Positions 19,767 through 53,231 of a DNA stretch of 64,000 nt are shown here, one piece after another; the first letter of the stretch is position 1, and each line of letters starts with the position of its first letter. The stretch comes from Candidatus Thorarchaeota archaeon (GTDB lineage: Archaea > Asgardarchaeota > Thorarchaeia > Thorarchaeales > Thorarchaeaceae): NCBI GenBank assembly GCA_048884965.1, contig JBHLQH010000004.1:1-64000 (forward strand), read 5' to 3'. Both the position numbers and the translations under genes were made by a program. The notes beneath the pieces were generated by a model, which was given only the letters and a program-made list of their open reading frames with translations, searched no databases and was not told where the DNA came from.

Positions 19767-20270
19767 CTACAACTCCTTGTCCCCAATTACTCTATCATCA
19801 ATAGGTTCTCCTATATCTAGGAGTTCAGGGAAGATCTTCATTGCGGTCTTGTTGTGTCTTACACTCCTACTAATCCAATTCAGCCATTCATCCTCTTTGA
19901 TATCACATTCCTCTAGACGCTTCATGATGGTTTCTAAGACATGGTCTCTAGGAACATAGACAAAAGCTTCGCCAAATTCGGTATCTACTGTGATTCTATC
20001 ATAATGGTATGGGTACCCCTCAGCATCATCGATGAGTTTCAGATTCTTCTTGTTTGTCTCAGTGACTAACATAAGAACGCTCGAATTGCTATCTTTGATG
20101 ATATATGGATGTGTATCTCTTGGTAGTAGAATTCGCTTCCACCCTTTTACTTCTGAAAATCCTTTTACTTTCACATCCCAATAATACTGCTTTGCAGTCA
20201 TATCATCACTTATGGTTTCAAGTGCATCGGTGATAAAAGTACCATAGCCAGCTATTATGACATTCTTCAT
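19767..20270 (-). CDS. Gamma-glutamylcyclotransferase (AIG2/GGCT)-like protein
   Basis: N-terminal AGYGTF; LIDDAEGYPYHYDRITV; AFVYV. Confidence 0.7.
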   Translation of the reverse strand: MKNVIIAGYGTFITDALETISDDMTAKQYYWDVKVKGFSEVKGWKRILLPRDTHPYIIKDSNSSVLMLVTETNKKNLKLIDDAEGYPYHYDRITVDTEFGEAFVYVPRDHVLETIMKRLEECDIKEDEWLNWISRSVRHNKTAMKIFPELLDIGEPIDDRVIGDKEL

Positions 20271-21373
20271 CGAATCACCTGTTTCGCACGTTTGTAGAGT
20301 CTGATGGTTTTCTTCGTTAGTTCATTAGTCTTATACTCATAATGACTTCGAGGTGGTGTGGCAATATATTCGTCTAGAAACTCTATAGTTATACCAAGGA
20401 CTCTGGTGAAATACTCCTTCTCTGATGCTTCTTCCTCAGGAGTATAATGAGGGATCTCAAGCTCTTTTAGGGCTTCTTCACGAGTCAATTGACCTGCACA
20501 GATCAGACATGAATAGTGTGCTCTTCGCTTGTCAAAGCCAAATTTCTTGGGAAAGATGTAGCTCTCGACAAACTTGGTATATCGATCTTCGCTATGCTTT
20601 CGACCATAGTCAATCCAACCAAACTCCTTTGCCAAATCTTCCTTCGCTTTGAATTTATTGTAAGGCGGATCTACATGATTCAGTAGTCTAAACTCCTTGA
20701 AGCCTTTGAAGCTATGCATAACTGTTCGACTGAAGAGATTCAGGAGTTTTGTTTCTTTGAGTGGTATTGTCCCATGTCGCTTGTGTATGTCTAGAATGTT
20801 CGTCGCATCGCCATTATCGTAGCCCCAATTACTTGGTAGAAAGCCCTCTGTAATGAAATTTCCACCATTAAGTAAGCTATGAATTTTATTATCATGACAT
20901 GCTTGATAGCAGAATGTTCGAAGAATGTTATCTGTCGGTGCTTCAAGACCAACAACACTTGCCTTTAGGTAGGAGTTGATTATATCACGATACTCTCGAT
21001 GATTAAAGCGCGGATGAAAGAAATCGAAACCAGTTGTATTCACTATATTTTGGACATTCAACCATGCTGCTTTTGTATTCCATCCAGAGTCTGCATGAAC
21101 GAGAAGAACATTCAATCCATGTTTCCATACAAGTCTAGCAAGCTCACTACTATCAACTCCACCACTTAGACCAAGCACAGCATCATATTTTCCGTCTCTT
21201 CTGTTTTCAAGGAGCTCATCTATGATTACTTCAATTGGCCTTCGGTCCACTTTATGTTCCCAGTTTATGTGCCAGTCTTTGCAGTAATTACAGACTCCAT
21301 CCTCATCAAATGTGATATCGCCTGCTGTGGTGTCCATAACGCATCGAGTGCATATCTGATATTCTTGCGTCAT
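20267..21373 (-). CDS. N-acetyl sugar amidotransferase (WbpG-like)
   Basis: CTRCVMDT, GVCNYC, YDAVLGLSGGVDSS PP-loop, YGRKHSE, FGFDKRR, GQLTREEAL. Confidence 0.88.
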   Translation of the reverse strand: MTQEYQICTRCVMDTTAGDITFDEDGVCNYCKDWHINWEHKVDRRPIEVIIDELLENRRDGKYDAVLGLSGGVDSSELARLVWKHGLNVLLVHADSGWNTKAAWLNVQNIVNTTGFDFFHPRFNHREYRDIINSYLKASVVGLEAPTDNILRTFCYQACHDNKIHSLLNGGNFITEGFLPSNWGYDNGDATNILDIHKRHGTIPLKETKLLNLFSRTVMHSFKGFKEFRLLNHVDPPYNKFKAKEDLAKEFGWIDYGRKHSEDRYTKFVESYIFPKKFGFDKRRAHYSCLICAGQLTREEALKELEIPHYTPEEEASEKEYFTRVLGITIEFLDEYIATPPRSHYEYKTNELTKKTIRLYKRAKQVIR

Positions 21374-21844: not shown

Positions 21845-22264
21845 TTACCTCCTATCTAGTACAAGGACCTTCGGGAGCTTCAGTAGTTTACCCATATTAC
21901 GACCAGTTGTTCCGCCTTTGTAGCGAAGCCGCCTCTTCCCAAAGCGATTCTTTCCGGTCATCATTTTGACGGTGGAATATTCACCATTTGTGAAATACAT
22001 AAGATCCTCAGGATCTGATATGAGTTCCAGGTCATATTCATCCAATTTCCCCTTACTCAGAGTGTATTCTCCATCGTGAGCGATTAGATTTAGCCAGAAT
22101 ATGAATTCCTCCTCAACATGCAGTCCGAGATTGATTCTTGCCTCGAACTCATCAAGTGTCTTGGAATTCTCAGGATTCTTACGTTTGTCAGCAATAACAT
22201 CATCGATGACCGTCTTGAAGGTTAGGAACAAGGTCTCTTGCGCCGATTCATCCATTGCATTCAC
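21845..22264 (-). CDS. SCP2 sterol/lipid-binding-like domain protein (divergent)
   Basis: SCP2-like topology (strands, DLELISDPEDLMYFTNGE, LRYKG..MGKLLKL); directly downstream of a clear SCP2 gene. Confidence 0.55.
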   Translation of the reverse strand: MNAMDESAQETLFLTFKTVIDDVIADKRKNPENSKTLDEFEARINLGLHVEEEFIFWLNLIAHDGEYTLSKGKLDEYDLELISDPEDLMYFTNGEYSTVKMMTGKNRFGKRRLRYKGGTTGRNMGKLLKLPKVLVLDRR

Positions 22265-22273
22265 CCCATAAGT

Positions 22274-22723
22274 CTAGAAATAGTCTGTTTCAATCATACC
22301 AGCGGTTCTGACGAGTTCTTTAGCAGCATCTGTCGCCTTGAGAACCTTTGCCATGTTCCCCTGTATCTTTGCCTTGCCGCTTAGCAATCCACGAATTGGG
22401 TCAAGTTCACCCTTCAATATTAGCACCCAAGTGTCATAGCTTGCCGCATAGGTATACTCTACGCCAAGCTTGCTAGCATTACTTGCGCTCTCTCCTTCAC
22501 CAACTACTTCATAATCACTCTCACCGGAGAGCGCCTTGACTCCTGTACACTTACCATGCTCTAATCCAACATAGGCGAAGATGTCATGATCTAGATTCCC
22601 ACTAGATCGTACAATGAAAACAAAATCTCCAGTCCACCAAGATGCGGCCTTGGCATAGTCTTCATTCTTATTCAAAGCAACTTCGTAGAGTTCCAACCAC
22701 TCTGGTGAAAATAGTACCGGCAT
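22274..22723 (-). CDS. SCP2 sterol-binding domain protein
   Basis: FSPEW...ALN...YAKAA.WW.GDF; YDTW..ILKGELDPIRGLLSGKAKIQGNM. Confidence 0.85.
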   Translation of the reverse strand: MPVLFSPEWLELYEVALNKNEDYAKAASWWTGDFVFIVRSSGNLDHDIFAYVGLEHGKCTGVKALSGESDYEVVGEGESASNASKLGVEYTYAASYDTWVLILKGELDPIRGLLSGKAKIQGNMAKVLKATDAAKELVRTAGMIETDYF

Positions 22724-22790: not shown

Positions 22791-23072
22791 TCAACCGCCA
22801 GCGACTAGTGGAAAGATTGCTAAGATATCTCCCTCTTCAAGAGTTGTTTCAAGTCCATCCAGAAATTTTATCTCGCGGCCATTCTTCAGAAGCGTAATAT
22901 CTGCCTTTACTTCTTCATTCTCGTTCATCAGTGCCTGTCTGATTTTGGAGTTCTCGCATATCTTGCTAAGAACCTGTGAAACCTTTGTAGGTTCATCCAC
23001 GTCAAGCTCCAGTACAGAATGACCTCCAATCAGGTTTCGGAGGTGAGCGTAGAACTTGACTGCGATTTTCAT
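22791..23072 (-). CDS. MoaD/ThiS/SAMP ubiquitin-like sulfur carrier
   Basis: MKIAVKFYAHLR...LKNGREI..LDGLET.LEEGD.LAIFPLVAGG with C-terminal diglycine. Start set at ATG 23072. Confidence 0.9.
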   Translation of the reverse strand: MKIAVKFYAHLRNLIGGHSVLELDVDEPTKVSQVLSKICENSKIRQALMNENEEVKADITLLKNGREIKFLDGLETTLEEGDILAIFPLVAGG

Positions 23073-23104: not shown

Positions 23105-23112
23105 TTATAAAA
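23105..23112. promoter_or_regulatory. TATA-like box in divergent moaD-like / AOR-ACS promoter
   Basis: TTATAAAA in the 80-bp intergenic region. Confidence 0.4.
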
Positions 23113-23152: not shown

Positions 23153-26100
23153 ATGTATGGATACATGGGAAAAATCCTGAGAGTCAATCTTTCGACTGGC
23201 TCTATCACTGAAGAGTTTCCAGATGAAGAAACACTAAGAAAATATCTTGGTGGGTCAGGATTGGCAACGAAATATCTCTTTGACGAAACTGAAGCTGGAA
23301 TCGACCCACTTGGACCTGAGAATAAGCTCATCTTCATGACTGGTCCATTGACAGGAACACATTCTCCCAGCACGGGCAGGTACAGTGTTGTCACGAAGGC
23401 ACCTCTCACAAATGGTTGGGGACAAGCAAACTCAGCAGGATTCTGGGGACGTGATTTCAAGCGCTCAGGATTCGATGGAGTGATTTTTGAAGGAATATCC
23501 CCCAAACCTGTGTATCTTCTTACAGAGGATGGCAAAGCGGAGCTTGTTGATGCAAGCGAACTCTGGGGTAAGAACACCTCTGAAACGACTAGAATCTTGA
23601 AAGAGAAGCATGGTCCAAAATTCAATGTGGCATGTATTGGTATTGCTGGTGAGAAGCTAGTCAAATATGCAGCCATCATGAATGACTGCGATGAAGAGAA
23701 TTGGGGACGGGCCGCAGGTAGATGTGGTGTAGGCGCTGTAATGGGCTCAAAGAATCTCAAAGCAATAGCTTCGAAAGGGACATTGCAGATACCAATTGCT
23801 GACCCAGAGAAGTATCGAGAGGAAGCCAAGCAGAGATTCGATTGGGTAAACCAGAGCATCTTGAAGATGACACTCGAGGTCTATGGAACTGCAACAATGG
23901 TAGATCTTGTGAATGTAAAGGGAGGAATCCCCACCAAGAATTGGCAGACTGGAGTGTTCGAGAATGCTGAAGCAATCAATGGCACTGCAATCAACGACAA
24001 GATCCTTGTTAAGAGAAAGCCATGCTTTGCCTGCCCAATACATTGTGGAAGAATAGCAGAGATCAAAGCAGGTCCATTCAAGAGTAAGGGGGAGGGTCCC
24101 GAATATGAAACTATTAGCTCTTTCGGAACAATGTGTGGCGTAGACAATCTTGAAGCCATTACACTTGCTCATTTCCTTTGTAACGAATATGGCTTGGATA
24201 CGATCTCAGCGGGCAGCTCGGTTGCATTTGCTATGGAGTGCTATCAACGTGGAATCCTGAAACCAGAGGATGTGGATGGTCTAGACTTCTCATGGGGTAA
24301 TGCTCAACTGATCGTGGATATAGTAGAGAAGATAGCAAAGCGAGAGGGCGTAGGTGACTTCCTTGCGGAAGGAACGATGAGGATGTCTCAGAAGCTTGGT
24401 CAAGGTTCAGAGCATTTTGCAATGCATGTCAAGGGTCTCGAACTCCCCGGCTATGATAGCCGTGCGGCAAAGGTGACGGGACTTGCCTATGCAGTCGCCA
24501 ATCGCGGAGGAGACCACATTACAGCATACATTGAAGGACCAGCATTTCTGTCGATGCCTTTTATGATAGTCGAGGATGCAGATGTTGGAGACCCGTTGAA
24601 GGAGATTCCTGAAACAGCGCTTATCGTGAAGAACTTTGAAGACTCCCTCGGCAACTTTGATGCGATTGGTGGATGCAAATTCATGGGGATGGTCCTTACA
24701 GCTGATGATTGGGCAAGTTTGATTTCCAGCTTGATGGGCATCGATATGTCAGCAGATGAGTTCCGTAGAACTGGAGAGCGTATCTACAATCTTGAACGCG
24801 CATACATTCTACGGGAAGGATTCACAAGGGCAGATGACACCCTACCACCAAGACTGCTGGAGGACCCATTACCCGAAGGTCCTGCGGAAGGCCATGTTGT
24901 AGACCTCGACATTCTATTGGACGCGTATTATCAATATCGAGGGTGGGATGAATATGGAAGACCCACAATTGAGAAGCTGAAAGAGCTTGACTTGGAATGG
25001 CTGGTAGAAGTCGTACATGGTGATATTGTACCAATTCAAGAGGTTGTTAGGAAGAAGGTAAAGGATCTACCAGAAGTGGAGCGAAAGCAAGTATACGCAG
25101 GGACCAAAGTATCACTCAGCGACAAGCCTTGGCTTGATAACTACTTCATCGGACCATTCAAGCTTGCACAATCAATGAAGCCCTATCCTCAAATAAACAT
25201 CTACAAATTCCTAGAAGACACAGCAAGTGAGTTTCCAGACCTTATTGCTTGCGAGTACGCAGGTGAGGAGATGACATACCCTGAGCTGAAGGACAAGGTG
25301 GACAGACTTGCTTCAGCATTTGTGTCACTCGGAGTTAAGAAAGGTGATAAAGTAGCCACAGTTCTACCATCATGTCCTGAATTTATCATTGCAGACTATG
25401 CGGCGATGAAGATTGGTGCGGTACACGTACCTTTGAGCATACTGCATAAGGCGGATGATTTAGAGTACGAGCTAGGGGAGAGTGCAGCAGAGGTCGTTGT
25501 GTGCTCCTATAGAAGGATAGAACGAGTCAATCAGGTAAAGCCGAAGACTAAGGTGAAGAAAGTAATCTATGCGCCAACCAAACTCTATCCGGATTATCAA
25601 TATCCCGAAATGAAGATGATTGATGATACTGACTACTATCTGATGAGTGATTTGCTCGAGAAATATGAGCCGCATTCTCAAACTGTGGAGATTGACCCAA
25701 TGGAAGATATCGCGCTGTTGCCTTTCACAGGAGGCACTACAGGTCTTCCAAAAGGAACGATGCTTACGCACTATAATATTACATCCAACGTAAGGCAAAG
25801 CATTCACTGGATGATGGAGCCGCTGAAAGAAGGAATCATTGGGAAGAGCTCTGCTGTCGTCTGCATTCCCATCTTCCATGCCTACGGGCATTGGGCGATT
25901 CATGCATGCATTTCATGGGGCATCAAGATGTACCTTCTAGACCCTAGAGACATCCCCAAGATCGTAGATGTGATTAACAAGCATCGTCCATTCATTGTCT
26001 TCGCTGTACCAACACACTACGCATTATTCTCCAGCTTCGATCTAGCCAAGGCACAGATCTTTTACTTCTCAGGCGCTGCAGCTTTAGCAGAAGAACTAGC

Positions 26101-26785
26101 CGAAGAATTCGAGAGAAAGGCGGGGGTTCCAATGGGAGAGGGATACGGTGCGACAGAAACTTCCTGTGTAGCAACCATCAATATCTCAGCCCTCTCAAAA
26201 GTAACAGGATTCATGGCTGAAACTAAGAGAGGTGTAGGGATACCAATACCAGATACAGAGATCAAGATCGTCGACCCCGACACAGGAGAGGAACTTCCTA
26301 TTGGTGAACGAGGAGAGATCTGGATAAGAGGACCGCAGATTATGGCAGGTTATTTCCCTAACAGGGGAAGTGGTCTCAAAGCGGAGGGCTGGTTGCCAAT
26401 GGGGGACATTGTTGAGATGGACCAAGAAGGATACTTCAAAGTCGTAGATAGAATCAAGGATATGATCAATGTGTCCGGAAACAAAGTGTACAGTCGGGTC
26501 ATTGACGATATCCTTCATGAGCATGAAGCAGTCGAAATTGCTGGCGTCATTGGCATCCCTGATCCGGATAGACCAGGAAGTGAGAGAGTCAAGGCTTTCA
26601 TCCAACTCAAGCCCGAATTCAGGGGGCAGATAACAGAGAGCGATATCATAGAGTTTCTGAAAGGGAAGGTAAAACCCTACGCAGTTCCGAAGTCTGTCGA
26701 GTTTAGAGATGAACTCCCACTCACAATAGTCATGAAGTTGTTCAAGAAGAAATTGAGAGAAGAAGAGCTAGAAAAATCTCGTTGA
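23153..26785 (+). CDS. Fusion: aldehyde:ferredoxin oxidoreductase (W/Mo-AOR family) + long-chain acyl-CoA synthetase
   Basis: aa 1-~620: GKILRVNLS, GRCGVGAVMGSKNLKA, CFACPIHC, GPEYET, GLDTIS, YYQYRGWD..GRPT. aa ~660-1210: KPWL, FTGGTTGLPKG, EGYGATE, GEIWIRGPQ, GD, DRIKDMINVSG. Confidence 0.92.
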   Translation: MYGYMGKILRVNLSTGSITEEFPDEETLRKYLGGSGLATKYLFDETEAGIDPLGPENKLIFMTGPLTGTHSPSTGRYSVVTKAPLTNGWGQANSAGFWGRDFKRSGFDGVIFEGISPKPVYLLTEDGKAELVDASELWGKNTSETTRILKEKHGPKFNVACIGIAGEKLVKYAAIMNDCDEENWGRAAGRCGVGAVMGSKNLKAIASKGTLQIPIADPEKYREEAKQRFDWVNQSILKMTLEVYGTATMVDLVNVKGGIPTKNWQTGVFENAEAINGTAINDKILVKRKPCFACPIHCGRIAEIKAGPFKSKGEGPEYETISSFGTMCGVDNLEAITLAHFLCNEYGLDTISAGSSVAFAMECYQRGILKPEDVDGLDFSWGNAQLIVDIVEKIAKREGVGDFLAEGTMRMSQKLGQGSEHFAMHVKGLELPGYDSRAAKVTGLAYAVANRGGDHITAYIEGPAFLSMPFMIVEDADVGDPLKEIPETALIVKNFEDSLGNFDAIGGCKFMGMVLTADDWASLISSLMGIDMSADEFRRTGERIYNLERAYILREGFTRADDTLPPRLLEDPLPEGPAEGHVVDLDILLDAYYQYRGWDEYGRPTIEKLKELDLEWLVEVVHGDIVPIQEVVRKKVKDLPEVERKQVYAGTKVSLSDKPWLDNYFIGPFKLAQSMKPYPQINIYKFLEDTASEFPDLIACEYAGEEMTYPELKDKVDRLASAFVSLGVKKGDKVATVLPSCPEFIIADYAAMKIGAVHVPLSILHKADDLEYELGESAAEVVVCSYRRIERVNQVKPKTKVKKVIYAPTKLYPDYQYPEMKMIDDTDYYLMSDLLEKYEPHSQTVEIDPMEDIALLPFTGGTTGLPKGTMLTHYNITSNVRQSIHWMMEPLKEGIIGKSSAVVCIPIFHAYGHWAIHACISWGIKMYLLDPRDIPKIVDVINKHRPFIVFAVPTHYALFSSFDLAKAQIFYFSGAAALAEELAEEFERKAGVPMGEGYGATETSCVATINISALSKVTGFMAETKRGVGIPIPDTEIKIVDPDTGEELPIGERGEIWIRGPQIMAGYFPNRGSGLKAEGWLPMGDIVEMDQEGYFKVVDRIKDMINVSGNKVYSRVIDDILHEHEAVEIAGVIGIPDPDRPGSERVKAFIQLKPEFRGQITESDIIEFLKGKVKPYAVPKSVEFRDELPLTIVMKLFKKKLREEELEKSR

Positions 26786-26811: not shown

Positions 26812-27414
26812 ATGGGAAAGGCAATTCTTCTCGATATGGACGGAGTAATTCGACATTTAGATTTACAGAATGCAGAGAAATATGCAAAAAAGATTGGTGT
26901 GACATTTACGGAACTCTCTGCGATTATTTGGGATAGGAGATTTATCAAGGACCTGATCTGTGGAAAAATCAACAGGGAGGAATGGTGGATTTGTCTTCAG
27001 AAGTCGTATGATATTCTTGCAGATGTGAATCAAGAAATCATATGGCAGGGAGTTCTAGGTGAAAATTATTTCAATGAGGAACTAATTTCATTCGTTAGAT
27101 CACTCAAGGATAAAGCGACCATTGCCATTCTAACGAACTGTGATTCAATCTCAAAAGCACGAATTGTCAAGGAGTTGGAAAGATTCGATGCATTTCATGA
27201 AATCTTCTCCTCTAGCGACTTAGGTCATGCTAAACCAGAGATTGAGATATTCTTAGAAGTACAGAAGGAGTTAAAGAAACAGCCCAATGAAATCATCTTC
27301 TTCGACGATAGTGTGGATAATGTTGAAGCTGCTTCCATCATCGGAATACATGCATTTGTCTATGATACGGTTGAGAATGCAAAGCAACGGATTTATGAAT
27401 TCCTTGGAATCTAG
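26812..27414 (+). CDS. HAD-superfamily hydrolase
   Basis: LLDMDGVI, ILTN, GHAKPE, FFDDSVDNV. Confidence 0.88.
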   Translation: MGKAILLDMDGVIRHLDLQNAEKYAKKIGVTFTELSAIIWDRRFIKDLICGKINREEWWICLQKSYDILADVNQEIIWQGVLGENYFNEELISFVRSLKDKATIAILTNCDSISKARIVKELERFDAFHEIFSSSDLGHAKPEIEIFLEVQKELKKQPNEIIFFDDSVDNVEAASIIGIHAFVYDTVENAKQRIYEFLGI

Positions 27415-28082
27415 CATTCCCTAACTTCAACCATCATTCCAGAGTCTTTGGGTAGACCTTTGGGATTGAGAGAAACAACACTGACGGAGATTGCAACAGG
27501 ATGCACCAATGGTTGTTTGAAATCTCGTTTCGTATCCGTTTCCTTTTGATCGATATATTCCACAATCGAGTTCAGTTTCTTATGCAATGAACCTACATCA
27601 TCTATGTCAGTGACTCTGAATGATAGATACTTTGAAACAACATTGCAGGAGCCATCTTCACCTGCTGATGTCTGTGCTGCTAGGAGAATCGCCTGTGATG
27701 TTTTTTGATGCAGGAGATAGGGAAGAACCTCAATCAGACTTAGCCACTCTTTGATGAGATCAGACCTTCCTATAGCTTCAGCGTATTTTCTCATTTCCAT
27801 TGAGTATAATCCTTTTGTCAAATCCATCAGATTTTCAGAGATGTAGTAGTGAGTGCTATACCTTTTGTCCTCGACGAGTTCGATTTCTTCCTTCTGTATG
27901 ATTCCTGCATCGAAAAGTCTTGCAAGATTCCGGAACATCGTCGCCTTACTCTGACCAGTTACCTCTCTTAGCCTAGCAGGAGTCGTCTTACCAAATATCA
28001 TCAAGTAGGAGTATATCATCAGACATGATTCAAGACTCATAATCTCAACAAGATACTCCATTTTACCGAGTTTCTTATCCAT
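27411..28082 (-). CDS. Winged-HTH transcriptional regulator (ArsR/TrmB-like)
   Basis: TTPARLREVTGQSKATMFRNLARLFDAGII. Confidence 0.8.
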   Translation of the reverse strand: MDKKLGKMEYLVEIMSLESCLMIYSYLMIFGKTTPARLREVTGQSKATMFRNLARLFDAGIIQKEEIELVEDKRYSTHYYISENLMDLTKGLYSMEMRKYAEAIGRSDLIKEWLSLIEVLPYLLHQKTSQAILLAAQTSAGEDGSCNVVSKYLSFRVTDIDDVGSLHKKLNSIVEYIDQKETDTKRDFKQPLVHPVAISVSVVSLNPKGLPKDSGMMVEVREC

Positions 28083-28183: not shown

Positions 28184-29056
28184 TCAGTTATCTGTATGCT
28201 GGGGTATGAACGCGAGCTTCTTGTTCGGATAGTCGATGATCAGCTCAAGATCTTTCATGAAAGGATATCCAATAATCCCATCCGTGATAATTGAACCACG
28301 TGGTGAAACCAATCCCAAATCAATGACAGCAAGCACTGCATTCTCTTGAACGATGCCACCTGCCTTAATCGATTGGACTTGGACTGCGTACCCCGGAGCA
28401 AACCCTCCAACACCTTGACACCCGTCCCCGCAACCTTCTGAGAGAGGAGACACAACCTTCACAGCACCTACTGCGCTGTCACGAGTCATCCCAAGACGCT
28501 CAGCTGCATTAGGAGTGATCACGGTACCTCCAGAGCCTGTATCGACAACTAAGCGAAAGGGACCTTTATCGTTGAGTGTCGTTTCAACCGTCACCAAGTG
28601 AGTGTCATCGATGTACTGAAAATCAGTCCATTCAAAATCATGATCCTGAGATAATTCATGACCATTTGCGTCGAAAGACATAGTGTGGGCCGGATAGTTC
28701 ACATGTAGACGATAATCCTTCAAGAAGGAATGTCCTATGACTCCAGCAGTGCAACATCCTCCTAGTGCTGAATCGAGGTCTATGACAAGTACCTCTTCAT
28801 CTTGTACAGTGATGTCACCTATCTGAAGACTCTCTACTCTAGCGAAGCTGACAGGGATCTTTCCACCTCCAACTCCTGTCGCGAGCGCTTTATCGCCCTG
28901 GTATGTATCGATTCCTAGTTCTTGTACGAGGCGAGTGGTGAGTGTTGTTGCTGTTGCCCCCGTATCCAATGTGAAAGTGAAAGGACCCTTTCCATTGACA
29001 TATACAGGGATTTGTGGATGGCCGGAGCCTTTACCTAATTCGAACGTGATATTCAT
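28184..29056 (-). CDS. Two-domain retropepsin-like aspartic protease
   Basis: FTLDTGA...GVIGHSFL and LVVDTGS...DGIIGYPFM. Confidence 0.88.
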   Translation of the reverse strand: MNITFELGKGSGHPQIPVYVNGKGPFTFTLDTGATATTLTTRLVQELGIDTYQGDKALATGVGGGKIPVSFARVESLQIGDITVQDEEVLVIDLDSALGGCCTAGVIGHSFLKDYRLHVNYPAHTMSFDANGHELSQDHDFEWTDFQYIDDTHLVTVETTLNDKGPFRLVVDTGSGGTVITPNAAERLGMTRDSAVGAVKVVSPLSEGCGDGCQGVGGFAPGYAVQVQSIKAGGIVQENAVLAVIDLGLVSPRGSIITDGIIGYPFMKDLELIIDYPNKKLAFIPQHTDN

Positions 29057-49245: not shown

Positions 49246-50121
49246 TTGTATCGAATCCCTATGAAGATCTACAAGCCCTATGATCAAGAAGCTTTATCAA
49301 TTCTAGAAGGTATATCGTCAAAAGTACGAAACCTTCAACAAGACGAAATCCCATTCTTCACTCTAGCCAAGAACGATGTTCCAAAAGGAATTCTTGCAAT
49401 ACAACAAGAGCCGTGCTACTTTGTTGCTGAAGCGGGGTCAACTCTGGGAGAGATTGCCTGTTTTAACGTGAACGTACAGGAATTCCAGGATATCATCCGT
49501 ACCTCAATCGATTTGATGAAGCAAGAAGATTTCGTCTACCTTATTCATTTTGGCGGTGACTTATCTGAGGAAGAACAAGATGTGCTAAAGGCGAATAAGT
49601 TCAGACTTAATGACCACTATTATATGATGGGAATCGAAGTGAGTGATTTCTATGACATCCCTCAAGGACTTCTCCTTAAACCTATCACCATTGAGGGGCG
49701 TAGTCAATTCCTTGATGTAGAGAAGGAATACTATGAGGGTACTGGAGATTCTTCAACGGAGTCTATGATGGACATGATTAGGAATATGCCATCAAGCGAT
49801 TTGGATGCGATTTATAATGAGGACACATCCTATTACGTGATGGATGGAGAATCCATCATTGCAATCGTAGTCATTTTCATAGATAGGGGAGGAATTGCAT
49901 CCATTGCTGTTCGACCAGATTTGAGGAGGAAAGGTTACGGACGCAGGGTTCTGCATATGGCAATGAACAGACTCAAAGAGTTTGGATGGAGCAAGATCAT
50001 GTTGAGGGTTCACGCAGATAACGAAGCTGCATTGAAACTGTACAAGAGAACTGGATTTGAGATACTCGTTGAAAGGAAGGCCTATGTCGCGTTCTCGAGA
50101 GATATGGATGAGCGTCTATGA
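49246..50121 (+). CDS. GNAT acetyltransferase (two-domain)
   Basis: IAVRPDLRRKGYG; LRVHADNEAALKLYKRTGF. Confidence 0.85.
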   Translation: MYRIPMKIYKPYDQEALSILEGISSKVRNLQQDEIPFFTLAKNDVPKGILAIQQEPCYFVAEAGSTLGEIACFNVNVQEFQDIIRTSIDLMKQEDFVYLIHFGGDLSEEEQDVLKANKFRLNDHYYMMGIEVSDFYDIPQGLLLKPITIEGRSQFLDVEKEYYEGTGDSSTESMMDMIRNMPSSDLDAIYNEDTSYYVMDGESIIAIVVIFIDRGGIASIAVRPDLRRKGYGRRVLHMAMNRLKEFGWSKIMLRVHADNEAALKLYKRTGFEILVERKAYVAFSRDMDERL

Positions 50122-51249
50122 TAGCCTGTCTACCAATTCAGCAATATCTAGAACCTTCATCTTCGAGAACTCAGAAGCATCACGTAGGTTTCGTACACAG
50201 AATGGGCATCCCGTAACAATTGCTGATGCTCCCACATCCTGTGCCTGCGCGATTCTACTCGTGGCAGTTTCCAAGCTCCAGTCAGCATAGGCAGACTTGC
50301 ATCCTCCGCCTGCTCCACAACACCACGCATTCTCACGAGAAGTTTCCATCTCAAGGAGTGGAACTCTCATTTTTTCCAAGACATTTCGAGGTGAATCGTA
50401 AACATCCATATGCCGCCCCAAGTGGCAGGGGTCATGCCATGTGTATGGCACAATATTCAAGGAATCCTTGATGTGAAGCGAACCTTGATCGATGAGATGT
50501 TCGATGAACTCTGTGATGTGCAGGATGTCGAATTCATATCGGACACCCATTCTTGGGTAATCTCGTTTCAATGTCCTATAGCATCCAGAGCAGGAAGTGA
50601 CCACTGTCCGAGCCCCCGCTTGAGATACCTGGTCTGAATTATATTGAGCTATCTGAGAGGTTCCCTCAAGCTGTCCAGTTCGTAGGAGAGGAGATGTACA
50701 ACAATACTCATCAATAATTGTAAACTCGACACCAGCTTTCTTTAGAATGGAGATAGTTGCATCCCGAATGCTTGTTTCACGATAATTGGACGTGCAGCCT
50801 ATGAAGTAAACGACTTCTGCTTTGTCTGGCAATCCATGGAGATCCTTCAGAGACCGAGCATGATGCTCAACACCGTAGGGATTGTGATGTTGAGCAATAT
50901 TCTCACTAAACTTCATGTGAGATGGCAAAGCTCCGAGATTCGCAACTGCGCTCGCCCGAAGTTCTTCAATGATATCAACGATGTGTTCATGATGAGGAGC
51001 AAGACACTGTACCTCGCAATTCCCACAAGTTGTACATGCGAAGATTGGATCAAGTAAATCTTCATTCCATTCTAGCTCACCCATAGACAGTCCTTGTGCT
51101 AATCGTATCCTTCCAGATGCAAAATAGGTCTCAAATTGGAAATGTGAGCCAGATGGACATGAATCAATATAGTCCTTGAAGACATATTTGCAATTGCCGC
51201 AACGCATGCACCGATGATTCCATTCTTCAATGATCGTCACAGGTCCCAC
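50116..51249 (-). CDS. HdrD/GlpC-like Fe-S oxidoreductase with CCG domains
   Basis: CMRCGNC..CP, CTTCGNCEVQC, FIGC, YCCT, SCSGC, HDPCHLGR, CCGAGGG, GCPFC. Confidence 0.9.
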   Translation of the reverse strand: MGPVTIIEEWNHRCMRCGNCKYVFKDYIDSCPSGSHFQFETYFASGRIRLAQGLSMGELEWNEDLLDPIFACTTCGNCEVQCLAPHHEHIVDIIEELRASAVANLGALPSHMKFSENIAQHHNPYGVEHHARSLKDLHGLPDKAEVVYFIGCTSNYRETSIRDATISILKKAGVEFTIIDEYCCTSPLLRTGQLEGTSQIAQYNSDQVSQAGARTVVTSCSGCYRTLKRDYPRMGVRYEFDILHITEFIEHLIDQGSLHIKDSLNIVPYTWHDPCHLGRHMDVYDSPRNVLEKMRVPLLEMETSRENAWCCGAGGGCKSAYADWSLETATSRIAQAQDVGASAIVTGCPFCVRNLRDASEFSKMKVLDIAELVDRLS

Positions 51250-52661
51250 CTCCCAGGATTAAAGATACCATTAGGATCTAGACTGTCCTTAATCTTCTTC
51301 ATGAGTTCTAGGAATCCTGGATGTATCTTCTTCTTGAGAATGTCGAATGCCCATGCTGGAGTCTTGTATGGAATGGCTCCAAGATCAATCGCGAAAGTTA
51401 GCAGGTCTCGATTGCATTGCCGAACGCGTTCAATAGTTCTTGCGTCCTTTTGAAATCTAATAATGAACTTGAACTCGCCAAAATGCATTCCATTCATTGG
51501 CTTCAGAAAAGCCATTAGCTCAAATCCATGTTTCTCAACAATCTTCCGCCCGCCCTCTAGAGCAGTAGCCCAGTTCTTCGGATGAATGTAGGTACCTGCC
51601 CAGGTCAATCCATCAAATTCAGCAAGGATTTTGAATGCATCAGAGGGAAAATCTACCCAAGCGTTCGCTTGATCTCCCATCATCTTCGAGATTGCGTCCC
51701 ATCTCACGAGCAGATGTCGTGATTCTTTCATCTTTGCGTCATCTATTACTCCTGTGAGTAGCCGTATCTTCTCATCAACCTCGAGCTGAGAATTTCCAGA
51801 GATACTTATCAGAGTTCCATAGTCAGGTTCTCCTTCAAACACCTCAACTGGGTATCTAACACCAAGCAGCATCTTCACCATGGAAAGGGACATGCAATCT
51901 GCATCGTCGACAAGATCCAACCGAGTTATCTTGGTTAGAAGATCAGTTGTATTCCGCTCACCAAAAGTGAATATTGCAGCATACTCTACAAATGGAGGTC
52001 TTGGCCAGAGCTGGAGCGCGATCTTTGTGACGATACCAGTCATCCCCTGCCAACCTGAGAATAGACCTACTAAGTCAGGGAGGGGATAACGTCCAAACCA
52101 GTTACCATCTCCAAGAATGCCACTTCCAGCACGAATCAATGTCCCTGTGGGAAGGACTGCCTCAAGTCCATTTACAAAATCAGCCATTGCTCCATGCACA
52201 GTTGATAGATCACAGAGCCCTTGCAGGAGTGCATTTGCCATCACTGATGTATAGGGAGGAGCCAAGGGGAAAGTATATCGTAACTCAGGAGCGTGCTCAT
52301 CCAAGAATCTTCGAAGATGACCAAAGGTCACACCAGGTTCAACGACAACGTACATGGCATTGTGATCGAGCTCTATAACCCGATTCATTCTCTTTAGGTC
52401 TACAATAACAGCTCCGTCTACTTGAGGTATTGTTAACCCGCCGACATTCTGACCCGATACAAATGGTATCAATGGAGTTCGGGTTTCATTCGCGAGTCTA
52501 ACGATCGCTTGTATTTCCTCAACAGATTCTGGCATGACAACCAAGCGAGGTTTTCGAGGTTCATTCTCCGTCATATCCATAGAATAAACAAATTGCTCTC
52601 CACTTCCTGATGCAACATGGCGGTCTCCCAGAATATCTCGAAAACGTGCCTCAAGATCCAT
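51237..52661 (-). CDS. FAD-binding oxidoreductase (FAD_binding_4; VAO/PCMH/GlcD superfamily)
   Basis: P.LVVMPES, VDLKRMNRV, VEPGVTF, GLEAVLPTG, GIVTK, DPNGIFNPG. Confidence 0.9.
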   Translation of the reverse strand: MDLEARFRDILGDRHVASGSGEQFVYSMDMTENEPRKPRLVVMPESVEEIQAIVRLANETRTPLIPFVSGQNVGGLTIPQVDGAVIVDLKRMNRVIELDHNAMYVVVEPGVTFGHLRRFLDEHAPELRYTFPLAPPYTSVMANALLQGLCDLSTVHGAMADFVNGLEAVLPTGTLIRAGSGILGDGNWFGRYPLPDLVGLFSGWQGMTGIVTKIALQLWPRPPFVEYAAIFTFGERNTTDLLTKITRLDLVDDADCMSLSMVKMLLGVRYPVEVFEGEPDYGTLISISGNSQLEVDEKIRLLTGVIDDAKMKESRHLLVRWDAISKMMGDQANAWVDFPSDAFKILAEFDGLTWAGTYIHPKNWATALEGGRKIVEKHGFELMAFLKPMNGMHFGEFKFIIRFQKDARTIERVRQCNRDLLTFAIDLGAIPYKTPAWAFDILKKKIHPGFLELMKKIKDSLDPNGIFNPGRWDL

Positions 52662-52665
52662 TCAA

Positions 52666-53061
52666 TCAACCTCCCAAGATGACCTGCATCAATCTGTAGA
52701 ATCTCATTGTAGCGATGGGATGACGAAGAAGTCCTTTAATCTGAATTTGGCGTCTTATTACCTCCTTGACCATGGAAGTCTTCCCACGCACAAGCTCAAT
52801 CATTGTATCAAAACTCATGACAATCTCAAGTGTCGGGTGCTCTACAAGATCACGAGATATTGTAACACCATTTTCGAAGGTGATGGAAATTGGATAGAAA
52901 TTCGTTCGCAGAAGTACAATCATTCTCCAATTCTGAATCTTCTTAGCGTTCTCAGGATCCTTCAAGTGTTCAGATAGCATCATCGCGAGAATGTTACCAA
53001 CAAAGTCGCGGGGATTGTTCAGCATAATTCTCTCAACCCACGGGGGCTCTTCGAGTCTCAT
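52666..53061 (-). CDS. SCP2 sterol-binding domain protein
   Basis: ISITFENG..., PTLEIVMSFDTMIELVRGKTSMVKEVIRRQIQIKG; ATG at 53061 inferred. Confidence 0.65.
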   Translation of the reverse strand: MRLEEPPWVERIMLNNPRDFVGNILAMMLSEHLKDPENAKKIQNWRMIVLLRTNFYPISITFENGVTISRDLVEHPTLEIVMSFDTMIELVRGKTSMVKEVIRRQIQIKGLLRHPIATMRFYRLMQVILGG

Positions 53062-53231
53062 GTAAAGCAAAGGTGCTTTTGAATATGGCTGTATCATGTG
53101 AGCAATTTCATAAGTGCATGTAATGATGTAAGTATTGGCGGTATCGATGAGGCATAGGTCTAATTCTGAGCCTCGGCTATGACGAATCGGTGAGCAGCTG
53201 AGAACCGCCACCTCTAAGCAAAAAGAGGAAT

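What the first reader, a model, noticed from the sequence alone, without database searches (positions are those of the whole stretch)
23153..26785. AOR-acyl-CoA synthetase fusion enzyme (1210 aa)
Seen: a complete AOR-family module (pterin/Fe-S motifs GAVMGSKNLKA, CFACPIHC, EYET, DAIGGC) joined in frame by a ~35-40 aa charged linker to a complete adenylate-forming ligase (TGGTTGLPKG, GYGATE, GD, DRIKD, terminal Lys). There is no internal stop or obvious Met restart at the junction. Established: AOR interconverts aldehyde and acid using ferredoxin, and ACS activates acids to CoA esters. Inference: one polypeptide channels hydrophobic aldehyde to acid to acyl-CoA, feeding beta-oxidation. An alternative is a ferredoxin-driven analogue of carboxylic acid reductase. 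I know no characterised enzyme with this architecture.
Basis: partly seen in the sequence, partly recalled or inferred. Interest (0 to 1): 0.88.

Follow-up and report, generated by a model that had tools for sequence, protein, structure and literature searches.

The report
Tungsten aldehyde oxidoreductase fused to acyl-CoA ligase
A Thorarchaeota (Asgard archaeon) gene really does join a complete tungsten-type aldehyde:ferredoxin oxidoreductase to a complete AMP-forming acyl-CoA ligase; the two are normally adjacent genes next to a lipid-carrier (SCP2-like) gene and fused at least twice, which points to an uncharacterised one-protein route from aldehyde to acyl-CoA.

Summary
Window 23153-26785(+) is one uninterrupted 1210-aa ORF with full-length AFOR_N, AFOR_C, AMP-binding and AMP-binding_C domains, and the cofactor and catalytic residues checked are present in both halves apart from two pterin-site substitutions. 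It is not a misassembly: more than 40 protein clusters from NCBI, JGI, ENA and Logan, and at least 26 genomes, carry the same open junction.

New here:
- The fusion derives from a widespread Asgard gene pair, AOR then ligase, 35-80 nt apart and often in the same frame.
- An SCP2-like gene lies beside the pair in nearly every locus whose flanks were read.
- An archaeal MoaD/SAMP1-like gene usually accompanies it, and in one family an Fe-alcohol dehydrogenase.
- A concatenated tree and an AU test (p about 1e-54) show at least two independent fusions.
- The linker (41-48 aa) keeps its length but not its sequence and is predicted disordered.

Best reading (about 0.6): ferredoxin-linked oxidation of hydrophobic aldehydes to acids, then ATP-dependent CoA activation. 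This genome has beta-oxidation genes to take the product. Direct channelling, the substrate and the direction are unproven. A CAR-like, ATP-driven acid reduction is not excluded (about 0.1).

No paper found and no solved structure covers this architecture. Another first-stage note of this scan flagged the same locus.

The parts
23153..26785 (+). Fusion gene, 1210 aa: AOR module + linker + AMP-forming acyl-CoA ligase module
   Evidence: the same architecture in more than 40 clusters
23168..23782 (+). AFOR_N domain (res 6-210), with GRY (R76) and RAAGR (186-190) pterin-phosphate motifs
   Evidence: alignment to 1AOR
23861..24994 (+). AFOR_C domains 2-3 (res 237-614): [4Fe-4S] Cys291/294/298/508, E319 and H455 (= P. 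furiosus E313/H448), pterin motifs NEYGLDT (344-350) and DAIGGC (503-508)
25025..25120 (+). Inter-module linker (res 625-656): predicted disordered, length conserved, sequence not conserved
25211..26356 (+). AMP-binding (ANL) N-terminal domain (res 687-1068): A3 P-loop 859-868, A5 GYGATE 997-1002. The ligase module proper begins at about res 653-657 (DKPW), where the separate ligases of relatives start.
26501..26728 (+). AMP-binding_C domain (res 1117-1192). The hinge/A8 motif DRIKD 1099-1103 lies just before it and the A10 Lys K1195 just after it.
22791..23072 (-). Archaeal MoaD/SAMP1-like small protein ending in Gly-Gly. The likely start is the ATG at 23072 (the ORF is callable to 23102). 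Probably the sulfur carrier for the tungstopterin cofactor.
   Evidence: (NF041918 69.5 bits against cut-off 60; TIGR01687 59.9 against 49.5)
22274..22723 (-). SCP2-like lipid-binding protein (149 aa), next to the AOR and ligase genes in all but three of the loci read (L017, L020, L021, which have under 1 kb of flank)
21845..22264 (-). 139-aa protein of unknown family, found beside the SCP2 gene only in the window's own family (fused and split loci)
26813..27414 (+). HAD-IA phosphatase. The likely start is the ATG at 26813 (MGKAILLDMDG), 27 nt after the fusion's stop, so it is probably co-transcribed.
23105..23112 (+). TTATAAAA, a TATA-box-like element about 41 nt upstream of the fusion's ATG, in the 80-nt divergent intergenic region
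   Evidence: sequence only; its function is inferred

Best explanation
The gene encodes a bifunctional enzyme of a Thorarchaeota (Asgard) archaeon.

The N-terminal module is a tungsten (or molybdenum) bis-pterin/[4Fe-4S] aldehyde:ferredoxin oxidoreductase of the AOR-proper type. It oxidises an aldehyde to the free acid and reduces ferredoxin. The C-terminal module is an ANL-superfamily AMP-forming ligase. It adenylates that acid and transfers it to CoA (ATP to AMP + PPi). Because the ligase step is effectively irreversible, it pulls the freely reversible AOR step in the oxidative direction.

The two modules are held about 40 residues apart by a flexible tether, so the poorly soluble acid is made next to the enzyme that consumes it.

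The enzyme belongs to a conserved Asgard module: an SCP2-like carrier, AOR, ligase, usually a MoaD/SAMP1-like cofactor-maturation protein, and in one family an Fe-alcohol dehydrogenase. Together these amount to an alcohol to aldehyde to acid to acyl-CoA funnel for hydrophobic substrates. The product goes to beta-oxidation or to lipid acylation.

Shown: the architecture, the intact catalytic residues, the conservation, the conserved gene set and the recurrent fusion. Inferred: the direction, substrate class, electron partner, metal and any direct channelling.
For: - **AOR half.** It is about 52% identical to P. furiosus AOR 1AOR (E 4e-162) and well ahead of FOR, WOR5 and BamB. All four cluster Cys and the E313 and H448 equivalents are present. 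The model superposes on AORs at TM 0.95-0.96.
- **Ligase half.** Its best solved match is A. fulgidus FadD-1, and its best NCBIfam models are long-chain fatty-acid-CoA ligases. A3, A5, A8 and the A10 Lys are conserved in all 27 relatives examined.
- **Real and under selection.** Fused forms of 1204-1226 aa at 61-87% identity occur in more than 40 clusters from four data sources. In the phylum survey, 24 genomes of the window's family and 2 of family f11 have a junction-spanning open frame.
- **Functional coupling.** Relatives carry AOR and ligase as adjacent genes 35-80 nt apart, often in frame with one or two stops exactly at the junction. The pair recurs at about 45-55% identity in L005 and L028.
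- **Recurrent fusion.** The tree needs at least two fusions, and the AU test rejects a single fused clade at p 1.3e-54.
- **Substrate hints.** An SCP2-like gene is adjacent in nearly every locus read, in four different gene orders. Fe-ADH lies next to SCP2 in the eight family-f11 loci whose fetched flank reaches it, and in one f22 locus. A PlsC-type acyltransferase lies between AOR and ligase in L026/L027.
- **Sink.** The genome has 6 acyl-CoA dehydrogenases, 3 enoyl-CoA hydratases and 2 3-hydroxyacyl-CoA dehydrogenases.
- **Model.** pLDDT 90.6, pTM 0.84, and only the linker is disordered.
Against: - No biochemical data exist, and no tool here reports tunnels, interfaces or substrate.
- The ligase scores below every NCBIfam equivalog cut-off (best 368.9 bits against 476), so chain-length specificity cannot be assigned.
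- The neighbouring Fe-ADH resembles short-chain group-III ADHs (AdhE C-terminal domain, FucO). That sits awkwardly with a long-chain lipid substrate.
- No beta-oxidation or ferredoxin gene lies beside the locus in this window.
- Two pterin-site residues of 1AOR differ (D338 to N344, K450 to T457). Their roles are from my memory of the 1AOR paper.
- The route costs two ATP equivalents where a CoA-acylating aldehyde dehydrogenase would cost none, so its physiological rationale is an argument and not a result.
- pTM is the model's own confidence, and I could not inspect the predicted inter-module contacts.
Confidence: 0.6

Rival explanations
1. ATP-driven, ferredoxin-dependent carboxylic acid reduction, a CAR analogue. 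The ligase module adenylates a fatty acid, and the acyl-AMP (or the acyl-CoA) is handed to the tungsten site and reduced by reduced ferredoxin to the aldehyde. The neighbouring Fe-ADH then reduces the aldehyde to the alcohol.
For: AORs are reversible, and acid reduction is thermodynamically hard (E0' about -580 mV; established knowledge), so coupling to ATP would make sense. The A-domain-like module is the same superfamily as the CAR adenylation domain. An Fe-ADH neighbour fits either direction. Recurrent fusion would also be expected if a labile acyl-AMP had to be handed over.
Against: There is no carrier (PP-binding) domain and no thioester-reductase domain. No AOR is known to act on acyl-adenylates or thioesters apart from the distant BamB. 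The A8 Gly and the full C-terminal domain typical of CoA-thioester-forming ligases are kept. The AOR active site matches ordinary aldehyde-oxidising AORs.
Confidence: 0.1
2. The two activities belong to one pathway but have no physical hand-over. Fusion only fixes 1:1 stoichiometry and co-expression of two enzymes that act independently on freely diffusing (or SCP2-carried) intermediates.
For: The linker is disordered and its sequence is unconstrained. Most lineages manage with separate genes. The fused-only state evolved simply by losing a stop codon in an in-frame spacer.
Against: Linker length is tightly kept within each fused clade (41-46 and 48 aa). pTM of 0.84 for a two-module, 1200-residue chain hints at a defined mutual arrangement. 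Two independent fusions were each retained across several genera.
Confidence: 0.2
3. The substrates are small, soluble aldehydes from amino-acid or sugar fermentation (as for classical AOR), not lipids. The ligase recaptures short or branched acids as CoA esters.
For: The AOR half is closest to the broad-specificity AORs of Pyrococcus and Clostridium. The Fe-ADH neighbour looks like short-chain ADHs. The ligase is below all long-chain equivalog cut-offs.
Against: The SCP2-like lipid-binding gene is almost invariably adjacent. A PlsC-type acyltransferase is inserted in the pair in two genomes. Fermenters normally excrete such acids to gain ATP rather than spend two ATP equivalents re-activating them (established physiology).
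Confidence: 0.2
4. BamB-like chemistry: the ligase makes an (aryl)acyl-CoA that the AOR-family module then reduces, as in class II benzoyl-CoA reductase.
For: BamB is an AOR-family tungsten enzyme that acts on a CoA ester (PDB 4Z3W is among the hits).
Against: BamB is the most distant solved hit (E 6e-67 against 4e-162 for 1AOR; TM 0.79-0.80 against 0.95). No BamC-I-like genes are in the neighbourhood.
Confidence: 0.03
5. Assembly or annotation artefact: two genes joined by a sequencing error at the junction.
For: Close relatives have a stop exactly at the junction. This genome is a 99-contig MAG with 7% contamination.
Against: The open junction is reproduced in more than 40 protein clusters and at least 26 genomes from independent samples and assemblers. 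The fused clades carry their own longer linkers (41-48 aa), unlike the 12-27-codon spacers of split pairs.
Confidence: 0.01

Closest known systems
Aldehyde:ferredoxin oxidoreductase proper (P. furiosus AOR, PDB 1AOR; C. autoethanogenum AOR 9G7J)
   Same: The N-terminal 620 residues share the three-domain fold (TM 0.95-0.96), about 52% identity by my count of the alignment (Foldseek 45%), the [4Fe-4S] Cys quartet, the catalytic Glu/His and the pterin motifs.
   Different: It is covalently joined to a 557-residue ligase. It has a clade-specific 5-residue insert (DEENW, 180-184) before RAAGR, which the split relatives also have. D338 is Asn and K450 is Thr. Metal, oligomeric state and substrates are untested.
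AMP-forming fatty acyl-CoA synthetases (FadD; A. fulgidus FadD-1, PDB 3G7S)
   Same: The C-terminal 557 residues have the two ANL domains and motifs A3, A5, A7/A8 and A10.
   Different: It is only about 30% identical to any solved ligase and scores below every NCBIfam equivalog cut-off. A10 reads MK/LK instead of GK. It is fused behind an AOR.
Carboxylic acid reductase (CAR: A domain, PCP, R domain)
   Same: One polypeptide combines an ANL adenylating module with a module that interconverts acid and aldehyde.
   Different: There is no carrier domain, no NADPH-dependent reductase domain and no phosphopantetheine. The redox module is a tungstopterin/Fe-S enzyme that uses ferredoxin. The likely net direction is the opposite.
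Proposed ADH, AOR and FadD steps in alkane- and alcohol-oxidising archaea (e.g. Ca. Cerberiarchaeum; PMC10811742)
   Same: The same three activities are proposed in series, from alcohol or aldehyde to fatty acid to acyl-CoA.
   Different: There they are unlinked genes inferred from genome content. Here they form a conserved cluster with an SCP2-like carrier and, in two lineages, a single polypeptide. The organisms here are Asgard archaea, and I did not search this genome for alkyl-CoM reductase.
CoA-acylating aldehyde dehydrogenases (e.g. the AdhE N-terminal domain, PduP/EutE)
   Same: The net conversion is aldehyde to acyl-CoA.
   Different: Those use NAD+ and conserve the energy in the thioester without ATP. 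This route would yield low-potential reduced ferredoxin and spend ATP to AMP. The two protein families are unrelated.

Membership tests
AOR family (Pfam AFOR_N + AFOR_C), AOR-proper subgroup | Full-length AFOR_N and AFOR_C domains | tested here: met
   260.7 and 460.8 bits, profiles covered 1-199/199 and 16-385/385
AOR family (Pfam AFOR_N + AFOR_C), AOR-proper subgroup | Four Cys ligands of the [4Fe-4S] cluster (Pf C288, C291, C295, C494) | tested here: met
   C291, C294, C298 and C508; invariant or nearly invariant in 36 relatives
AOR family (Pfam AFOR_N + AFOR_C), AOR-proper subgroup | Active-site Glu313 and His448 equivalents | tested here: met
   E319 and H455 aligned to 1AOR. The residue roles are from my memory of the 1AOR literature.
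AOR family (Pfam AFOR_N + AFOR_C), AOR-proper subgroup | Two pterin-binding D-x-x-G-L-(C/D)-x motifs | tested here: inconclusive
   The second motif, DAIGGCK, is intact. The first reads NEYGLDT (Asn for Asp338) throughout this clade.
AOR family (Pfam AFOR_N + AFOR_C), AOR-proper subgroup | Closer to AOR than to FOR, GAPOR, WOR5 or BamB | tested here: met
   1AOR 544 bits, FOR 381, WOR5 260, BamB 230. Fold TM scores.
AOR family (Pfam AFOR_N + AFOR_C), AOR-proper subgroup | Tungsten (or Mo) bis-pterin content and aldehyde oxidation activity | not testable with these tools
   Needs the purified protein.
ANL superfamily, AMP-forming acyl-CoA synthetase | AMP-binding and AMP-binding_C domains | tested here: met
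   291.1 and 50.6 bits, both above their cut-offs
ANL superfamily, AMP-forming acyl-CoA synthetase | Core motifs A3 (P-loop), A5, A7/A8 hinge and A10 catalytic Lys | tested here: met
   TGGTTGLPKG 859-868, GYGATE 997-1002, GD 1084-1085, DRIKD 1099-1103, K1195
ANL superfamily, AMP-forming acyl-CoA synthetase | Assignment to a named long-chain fatty-acid-CoA ligase equivalog | tested here: not met
   the best model, NF004837, scores 368.9 bits against a cut-off of 476, and all the others are further below theirs. The substrate class is therefore open.
Carboxylic acid reductase (CAR) | Phosphopantetheine carrier domain and NAD(P)H thioester-reductase domain after the A domain | tested here: not met
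   only four Pfam families are found, with no PP-binding or NAD_binding_4
Class II benzoyl-CoA reductase BamB | Closest similarity to BamB and BamC-I partner genes nearby | tested here: not met
   most distant solved hit; no such neighbours
SCP2 sterol/lipid-transfer family (neighbour 22274-22723) | Match to Pfam PF02036 above the gathering score | tested here: met
   25.0 bits against 21.3 for the window protein; 11 of 12 orthologues match, best E 2.5e-12. Lipid binding itself was not tested.
Archaeal MoaD / SAMP1 (neighbour 22791-23072) | Match above the curated cut-off and a C-terminal Gly-Gly | tested here: met
   NF041918 69.5 against 60; TIGR01687 59.9 against 49.5; sequence ends ...VAGG

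The most novel reading that the evidence does not exclude
The fusion is a ferredoxin- and ATP-dependent carboxylic acid reductase. The ligase module makes an acyl-adenylate (or acyl-CoA), and the tungstopterin site reduces it to the aldehyde. That would give anaerobic archaea a CAR-like route from fatty acids to fatty aldehydes and alcohols (for example for ether-type or wax lipids) by chemistry never shown for an AOR.
Probability: 0.08. Interest if true: 0.9.

Novelty: new variant of a known kind. Interest (0 to 1): 0.62.

Why it matters
- **A coupling signal.** Two well-known enzyme families joined in one chain, twice independently, is a strong sign that Asgard archaea obligatorily couple ferredoxin-linked aldehyde oxidation to CoA activation. 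This route has only been guessed at from unlinked genes in hydrocarbon- and alcohol-degrading archaea.
- **Asgard fatty-acid metabolism.** The conserved SCP2-like partner and the occasional PlsC-type acyltransferase tie the module to fatty-acid and lipid metabolism in the archaeal lineage closest to eukaryotes. How these organisms handle fatty acids bears on the origin of eukaryotic membranes.
- **Biocatalysis.** A single-chain aldehyde-to-acyl-CoA enzyme, or a ferredoxin-driven CAR analogue if it runs backwards, would be a useful part.
- **Annotation.** Current annotations ('AOR C-terminal domain-containing protein', 'hypothetical protein') hide all of this.

Tried and rejected
- **Complex prediction, AOR module + SCP2-like protein.** Score 0.02, no verdict. 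It is not evidence either way.
- **Fusion-specific insert.** I first thought the DEENW insert (180-184) marked the fused forms. It is present in all close split forms too, so I dropped that idea.
No Pfam or NCBIfam hit. hhalign against the SCP2-like alignment gives probability 0.2%. The AlphaFold2 model has pLDDT 48 and is unusable. The atlas gives only a weak lead: rank 18, score 0.92, SCP2 on a third of that cluster's members. Not established.
- **A possible third fusion in G173.** The survey listed a '1276-aa open frame', but there are two separate ORFs of 632 and 581 aa.
- **The G320 '982-aa AOR'.** The ligase part is cut by a run of N and followed by ETF genes. This is an assembly gap, not a new architecture.
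- **BamB-like and misassembly readings.** Both rejected; see the rival explanations.
- **Literature.** Seven full-text searches and three papers read gave no mention of the fusion or of the AOR-ligase-SCP2 cluster. Subscription-only papers were not searched.
- **Exhaustive representative search.** No further fused architecture appeared among the 150 best of 191,156 hits. More distant fusions could be hidden below that list.


Full report
**1. The observation**

Window 23153-26785 on the + strand is a single 1210-codon ORF with no internal stop. Pfam finds four full-length domains in order: AFOR_N (6-210), AFOR_C (237-614), AMP-binding (687-1068) and AMP-binding_C (1117-1192), all far above their gathering scores.

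**2. Are both halves intact?**

The AOR half aligns end to end with P. furiosus AOR (1AOR, E 4e-162, about 52% identity). It is much closer to AOR proper than to FOR, WOR5 or the benzoyl-CoA reductase subunit BamB.

- The three clustered cysteines and the fourth cysteine of the [4Fe-4S] cluster are present (C291, C294, C298, C508).
- So are the equivalents of Glu313 and His448 (E319, H455) and the second pterin motif.
- Two pterin-site residues differ: Asp338 is Asn344 and Lys450 is Thr457. The residue roles are from my recollection of the 1AOR work.

The ligase half is most like A. fulgidus FadD-1 (3G7S, E 3e-62). It keeps the P-loop (859-868), GYGATE, the DRIKD hinge and the A10 lysine (K1195). 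That lysine is kept in all 27 relatives examined.

NCBIfam's best models are long-chain fatty-acid-CoA ligases, but all score below their curated cut-offs. The superfamily is certain; the substrate class is not.

**3. Is the fusion real?**

- A word-indexed search of 5.8 billion proteins returns more than 40 clusters of 1204-1226 aa with the same four domains. They are 78-87% identical (labelled Thorarchaeota) or 61-64% identical (labelled Hodarchaeota), and come from NCBI, JGI, ENA and Logan assemblies.
- A search restricted to long proteins with the AOR half finds no other AOR-ligase fusion clade.
- In a six-frame survey of 400 genomes of the phylum, 24 genomes of the window's family (f1) and 2 of family f11 have an open frame across the junction.
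Misassembly is nonetheless excluded for practical purposes.
- The window's own genome (4.09 Mb, 99 contigs, 95.7% complete) has eight or nine other, unfused AOR paralogues at 43% identity or less, and four ligases at 41% or less. The fusion is therefore not a join of local paralogues.

**4. Where it came from**

The nearest unfused AORs lie immediately upstream of a separate ligase gene. The L005 ligase is 46% identical to the fusion's ligase half and starts exactly at fusion residue 656, 'S-D/E-KPWL'.

The phylum survey shows much closer split pairs, at 69-75% (AOR) and 56-73% (ligase) identity, in families f22, f11 and f1 itself. Source labels for these are Promethearchaeota, Hermodarchaeota, Hodarchaeota and Thorarchaeota SMTZ-45.

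Many 'full-length' matches contain one to three stop codons. In the four I read, every stop sits at residues 622-632, beginning right after '...IY'. A 10-20-codon in-frame spacer follows, and then the ligase's own Met. Gaps between the aligned parts of the two genes are 35-80 nt in most loci (184 nt in L018). The exception is two genomes where about 1 kb holds another gene.

A concatenated AOR + ligase tree (27 rows, LG+G4, rooted on the distant L005 pair) gives this picture:
- The six family-f1 fusions form one clade (support 100). It sits in an unresolved group with split pairs of f1 and of f22.
- The four f11 fusions form a second clade (support 99), nested among split f11 pairs.
- At least two changes of state are forced.

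Constraining all fusions to one clade costs 503 log-likelihood units (AU p 1.3e-54). The fused/split labels were set from stop codons before the tree was built.

The fused linkers are longer than the split spacers. They are 41-46 aa in f1 and 48 aa in f11, with length conserved, sequence free, and composition rich in E, T, K, S, V and I. The fusion was therefore not a bare stop-codon loss left untouched afterwards.

**5. Gene neighbourhood**

Mapping the window's neighbours onto 31 related loci shows the following (also 21-23 and 88).

| Neighbour | Where it occurs |
|---|---|
| SCP2-like gene | Beside AOR/ligase in all but three short-flank loci (L017, L020, L021), in four arrangements: divergent upstream, co-directional upstream, co-directional downstream, and after the ligase in the distant L005 |
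| MoaD/SAMP1-like gene | Present in most loci |
| Fe-dependent alcohol dehydrogenase | Next to SCP2 in eight of the ten f11 loci (the other two have short flanks) and in one f22 locus |
| HAD phosphatase | After SCP2 in f22 genera g69 and g70; a different HAD follows the fusion here, 27 nt downstream |
| PlsC-type acyltransferase (PF01553) | Between AOR and ligase in two f11 genomes |

- Eleven of 12 SCP2-like proteins match Pfam SCP2.
- The MoaD/SAMP1-like protein scores above the curated cut-offs and ends in Gly-Gly. It most simply supplies sulfur for the pterin dithiolene.
- A further SCP2-AOR-ligase triad at about 45% identity (L028) sits beside CoA-transferase and MaoC-type genes.
- Beyond the immediate cluster the window holds unrelated genes: beta-galactosidase, DUF1028, a GNAT acetyltransferase and ThrRS.
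- Beta-oxidation genes exist elsewhere in the genome.

**6. Structure**

AlphaFold2 on residues 11-1210 with a 93-row alignment gives mean pLDDT 90.6 and pTM 0.84. The only long low-confidence stretch is protein residues 625-656, the linker.

A pTM this high for two roughly 600-residue modules suggests that the model places them in a defined mutual arrangement. I cannot see the PAE or the contacts, so this is only a hint.

Foldseek finds no solved chain that covers both modules (best query TM 0.49). The AOR module matches AORs at TM 0.95-0.96, and the ligase module matches FadD1 at about 0.75.

**7. Mechanism**

The most economical reading is sequential. The aldehyde, possibly made by the neighbouring ADH and carried by the SCP2-like protein, is oxidised at the tungsten site, with electrons leaving through the [4Fe-4S] cluster to ferredoxin. 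The acid is then adenylated and thioesterified by the tethered ligase.

The AOR step is reversible and the ligase step is effectively irreversible. Tethering would keep a detergent-like, poorly soluble acid from escaping and would pull the oxidation forward. These steps are inferred from family knowledge and gene context; none is shown. I put this reading at about 0.6.

The rivals are:
- same pathway but no physical hand-over (0.2);
- small fermentation aldehydes rather than lipids as substrates (0.2; this overlaps the main reading, because it concerns only the substrate);
- CAR-like ATP-driven acid reduction (0.1);
- BamB-like chemistry (0.03);
- artefact (0.01).

**8. Comparison with what is known, and novelty**

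Each half is an ordinary member of its family. The combination is not described in the 8.4 million full texts searched or in the PDB.

The nearest idea in the literature is the proposed, unlinked ADH, AOR and FadD sequence in alkane- or alcohol-oxidising archaea (PMC10811742).

The sequences are already public but carry generic names. One split-pair AOR is a 'hypothetical protein' of the original Thorarchaeota SMTZ-45 genome.

I class the finding as a new variant of a known kind. It is a real, conserved and twice-evolved bifunctional enzyme within a conserved, undescribed gene module. The chemistry most likely combines two known reactions, and the function is still untested.

Noticed in passing
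proteins P0052-P0113, not in the window: A large set of about 810-840-aa proteins fuses an AOR (43-48% identical to this one) to a 3-hexulose-6-phosphate synthase / OMP-decarboxylase-fold domain (PF00215). Source labels are Nezhaarchaeota, Methanomethylicaceae, Hodarchaeales and Heimdallarchaeota. This could couple formaldehyde release by reverse HPS to its oxidation, analogous to the known Fae-HPS fusions.
   Followed up: no
protein P0121, not in the window: A 1144-aa Bathyarchaeota protein joins thiamine-diphosphate enzyme domains (PF02776/PF00205/PF02775) to a complete AOR. This may be a 2-oxoacid decarboxylase-AOR fusion. P0119 (837 aa, Chloroflexi) is an AOR fused to 4Fe-4S ferredoxin domains.
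   Followed up: no
L026:2845-3726(-) and L027:2851-3729(+): In two family-f11 genomes a PlsC-type acyltransferase gene (PF01553) sits between the AOR and ligase genes. This hints that the acyl-CoA may go to glycerolipid acylation.
   Followed up: partly
G000:C8:89728-91494(-) and G000:C3:146050-147801(+) (same genome, other contigs): Two of the genome's other AOR paralogues contain in-frame stops (TAG + TAA, and TAG) in the six-frame match. They could be pseudogenes, sequencing errors or recoding; I did not examine them.
   Followed up: no
window 50116-53211 (-): Operon of a CCG/Fer4_8 (HdrD/GlcF-like) protein, a FAD_binding_4 flavoprotein and a 181-aa protein that earlier notes call SCP2-like. 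Pfam confirms the first two. The 181-aa protein has no Pfam hit and only a motif-level resemblance to the SCP2-like alignment (hhalign probability 3.6%).
   Followed up: partly
window 28184-29056 (-): 290-aa protein with two retropepsin-like aspartyl protease domains (Asp_protease_2, two stretches), next to a weak MarR-like regulator at 27411-28082.
   Followed up: no
window 20267-21373 (-): 368-aa protein that matches the WbuX N-acetyl sugar amidotransferase subfamily just above its cut-off (207 against 203 bits). It has no Pfam family and is unrelated to the AOR locus.
   Followed up: no
L032 (G320:C1:153500-159500): In a single-contig relative, the fused gene is cut by a run of N right after 'ERPWLDNYRIGPFK' and reads on in frame into an ETF-beta gene, followed by an ETF-alpha/ferredoxin gene. 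This is an assembly gap or withheld bases, and the public protein is flagged partial.
   Followed up: yes
L003:2-331(-), L004:6382-6765(+), L009:10622-11002(+): A small (110-127 aa) protein that matches only the HMG-CoA_red_N Pfam family accompanies the fused locus in the Hodarchaeota-type genomes. Its role is unknown.
   Followed up: no
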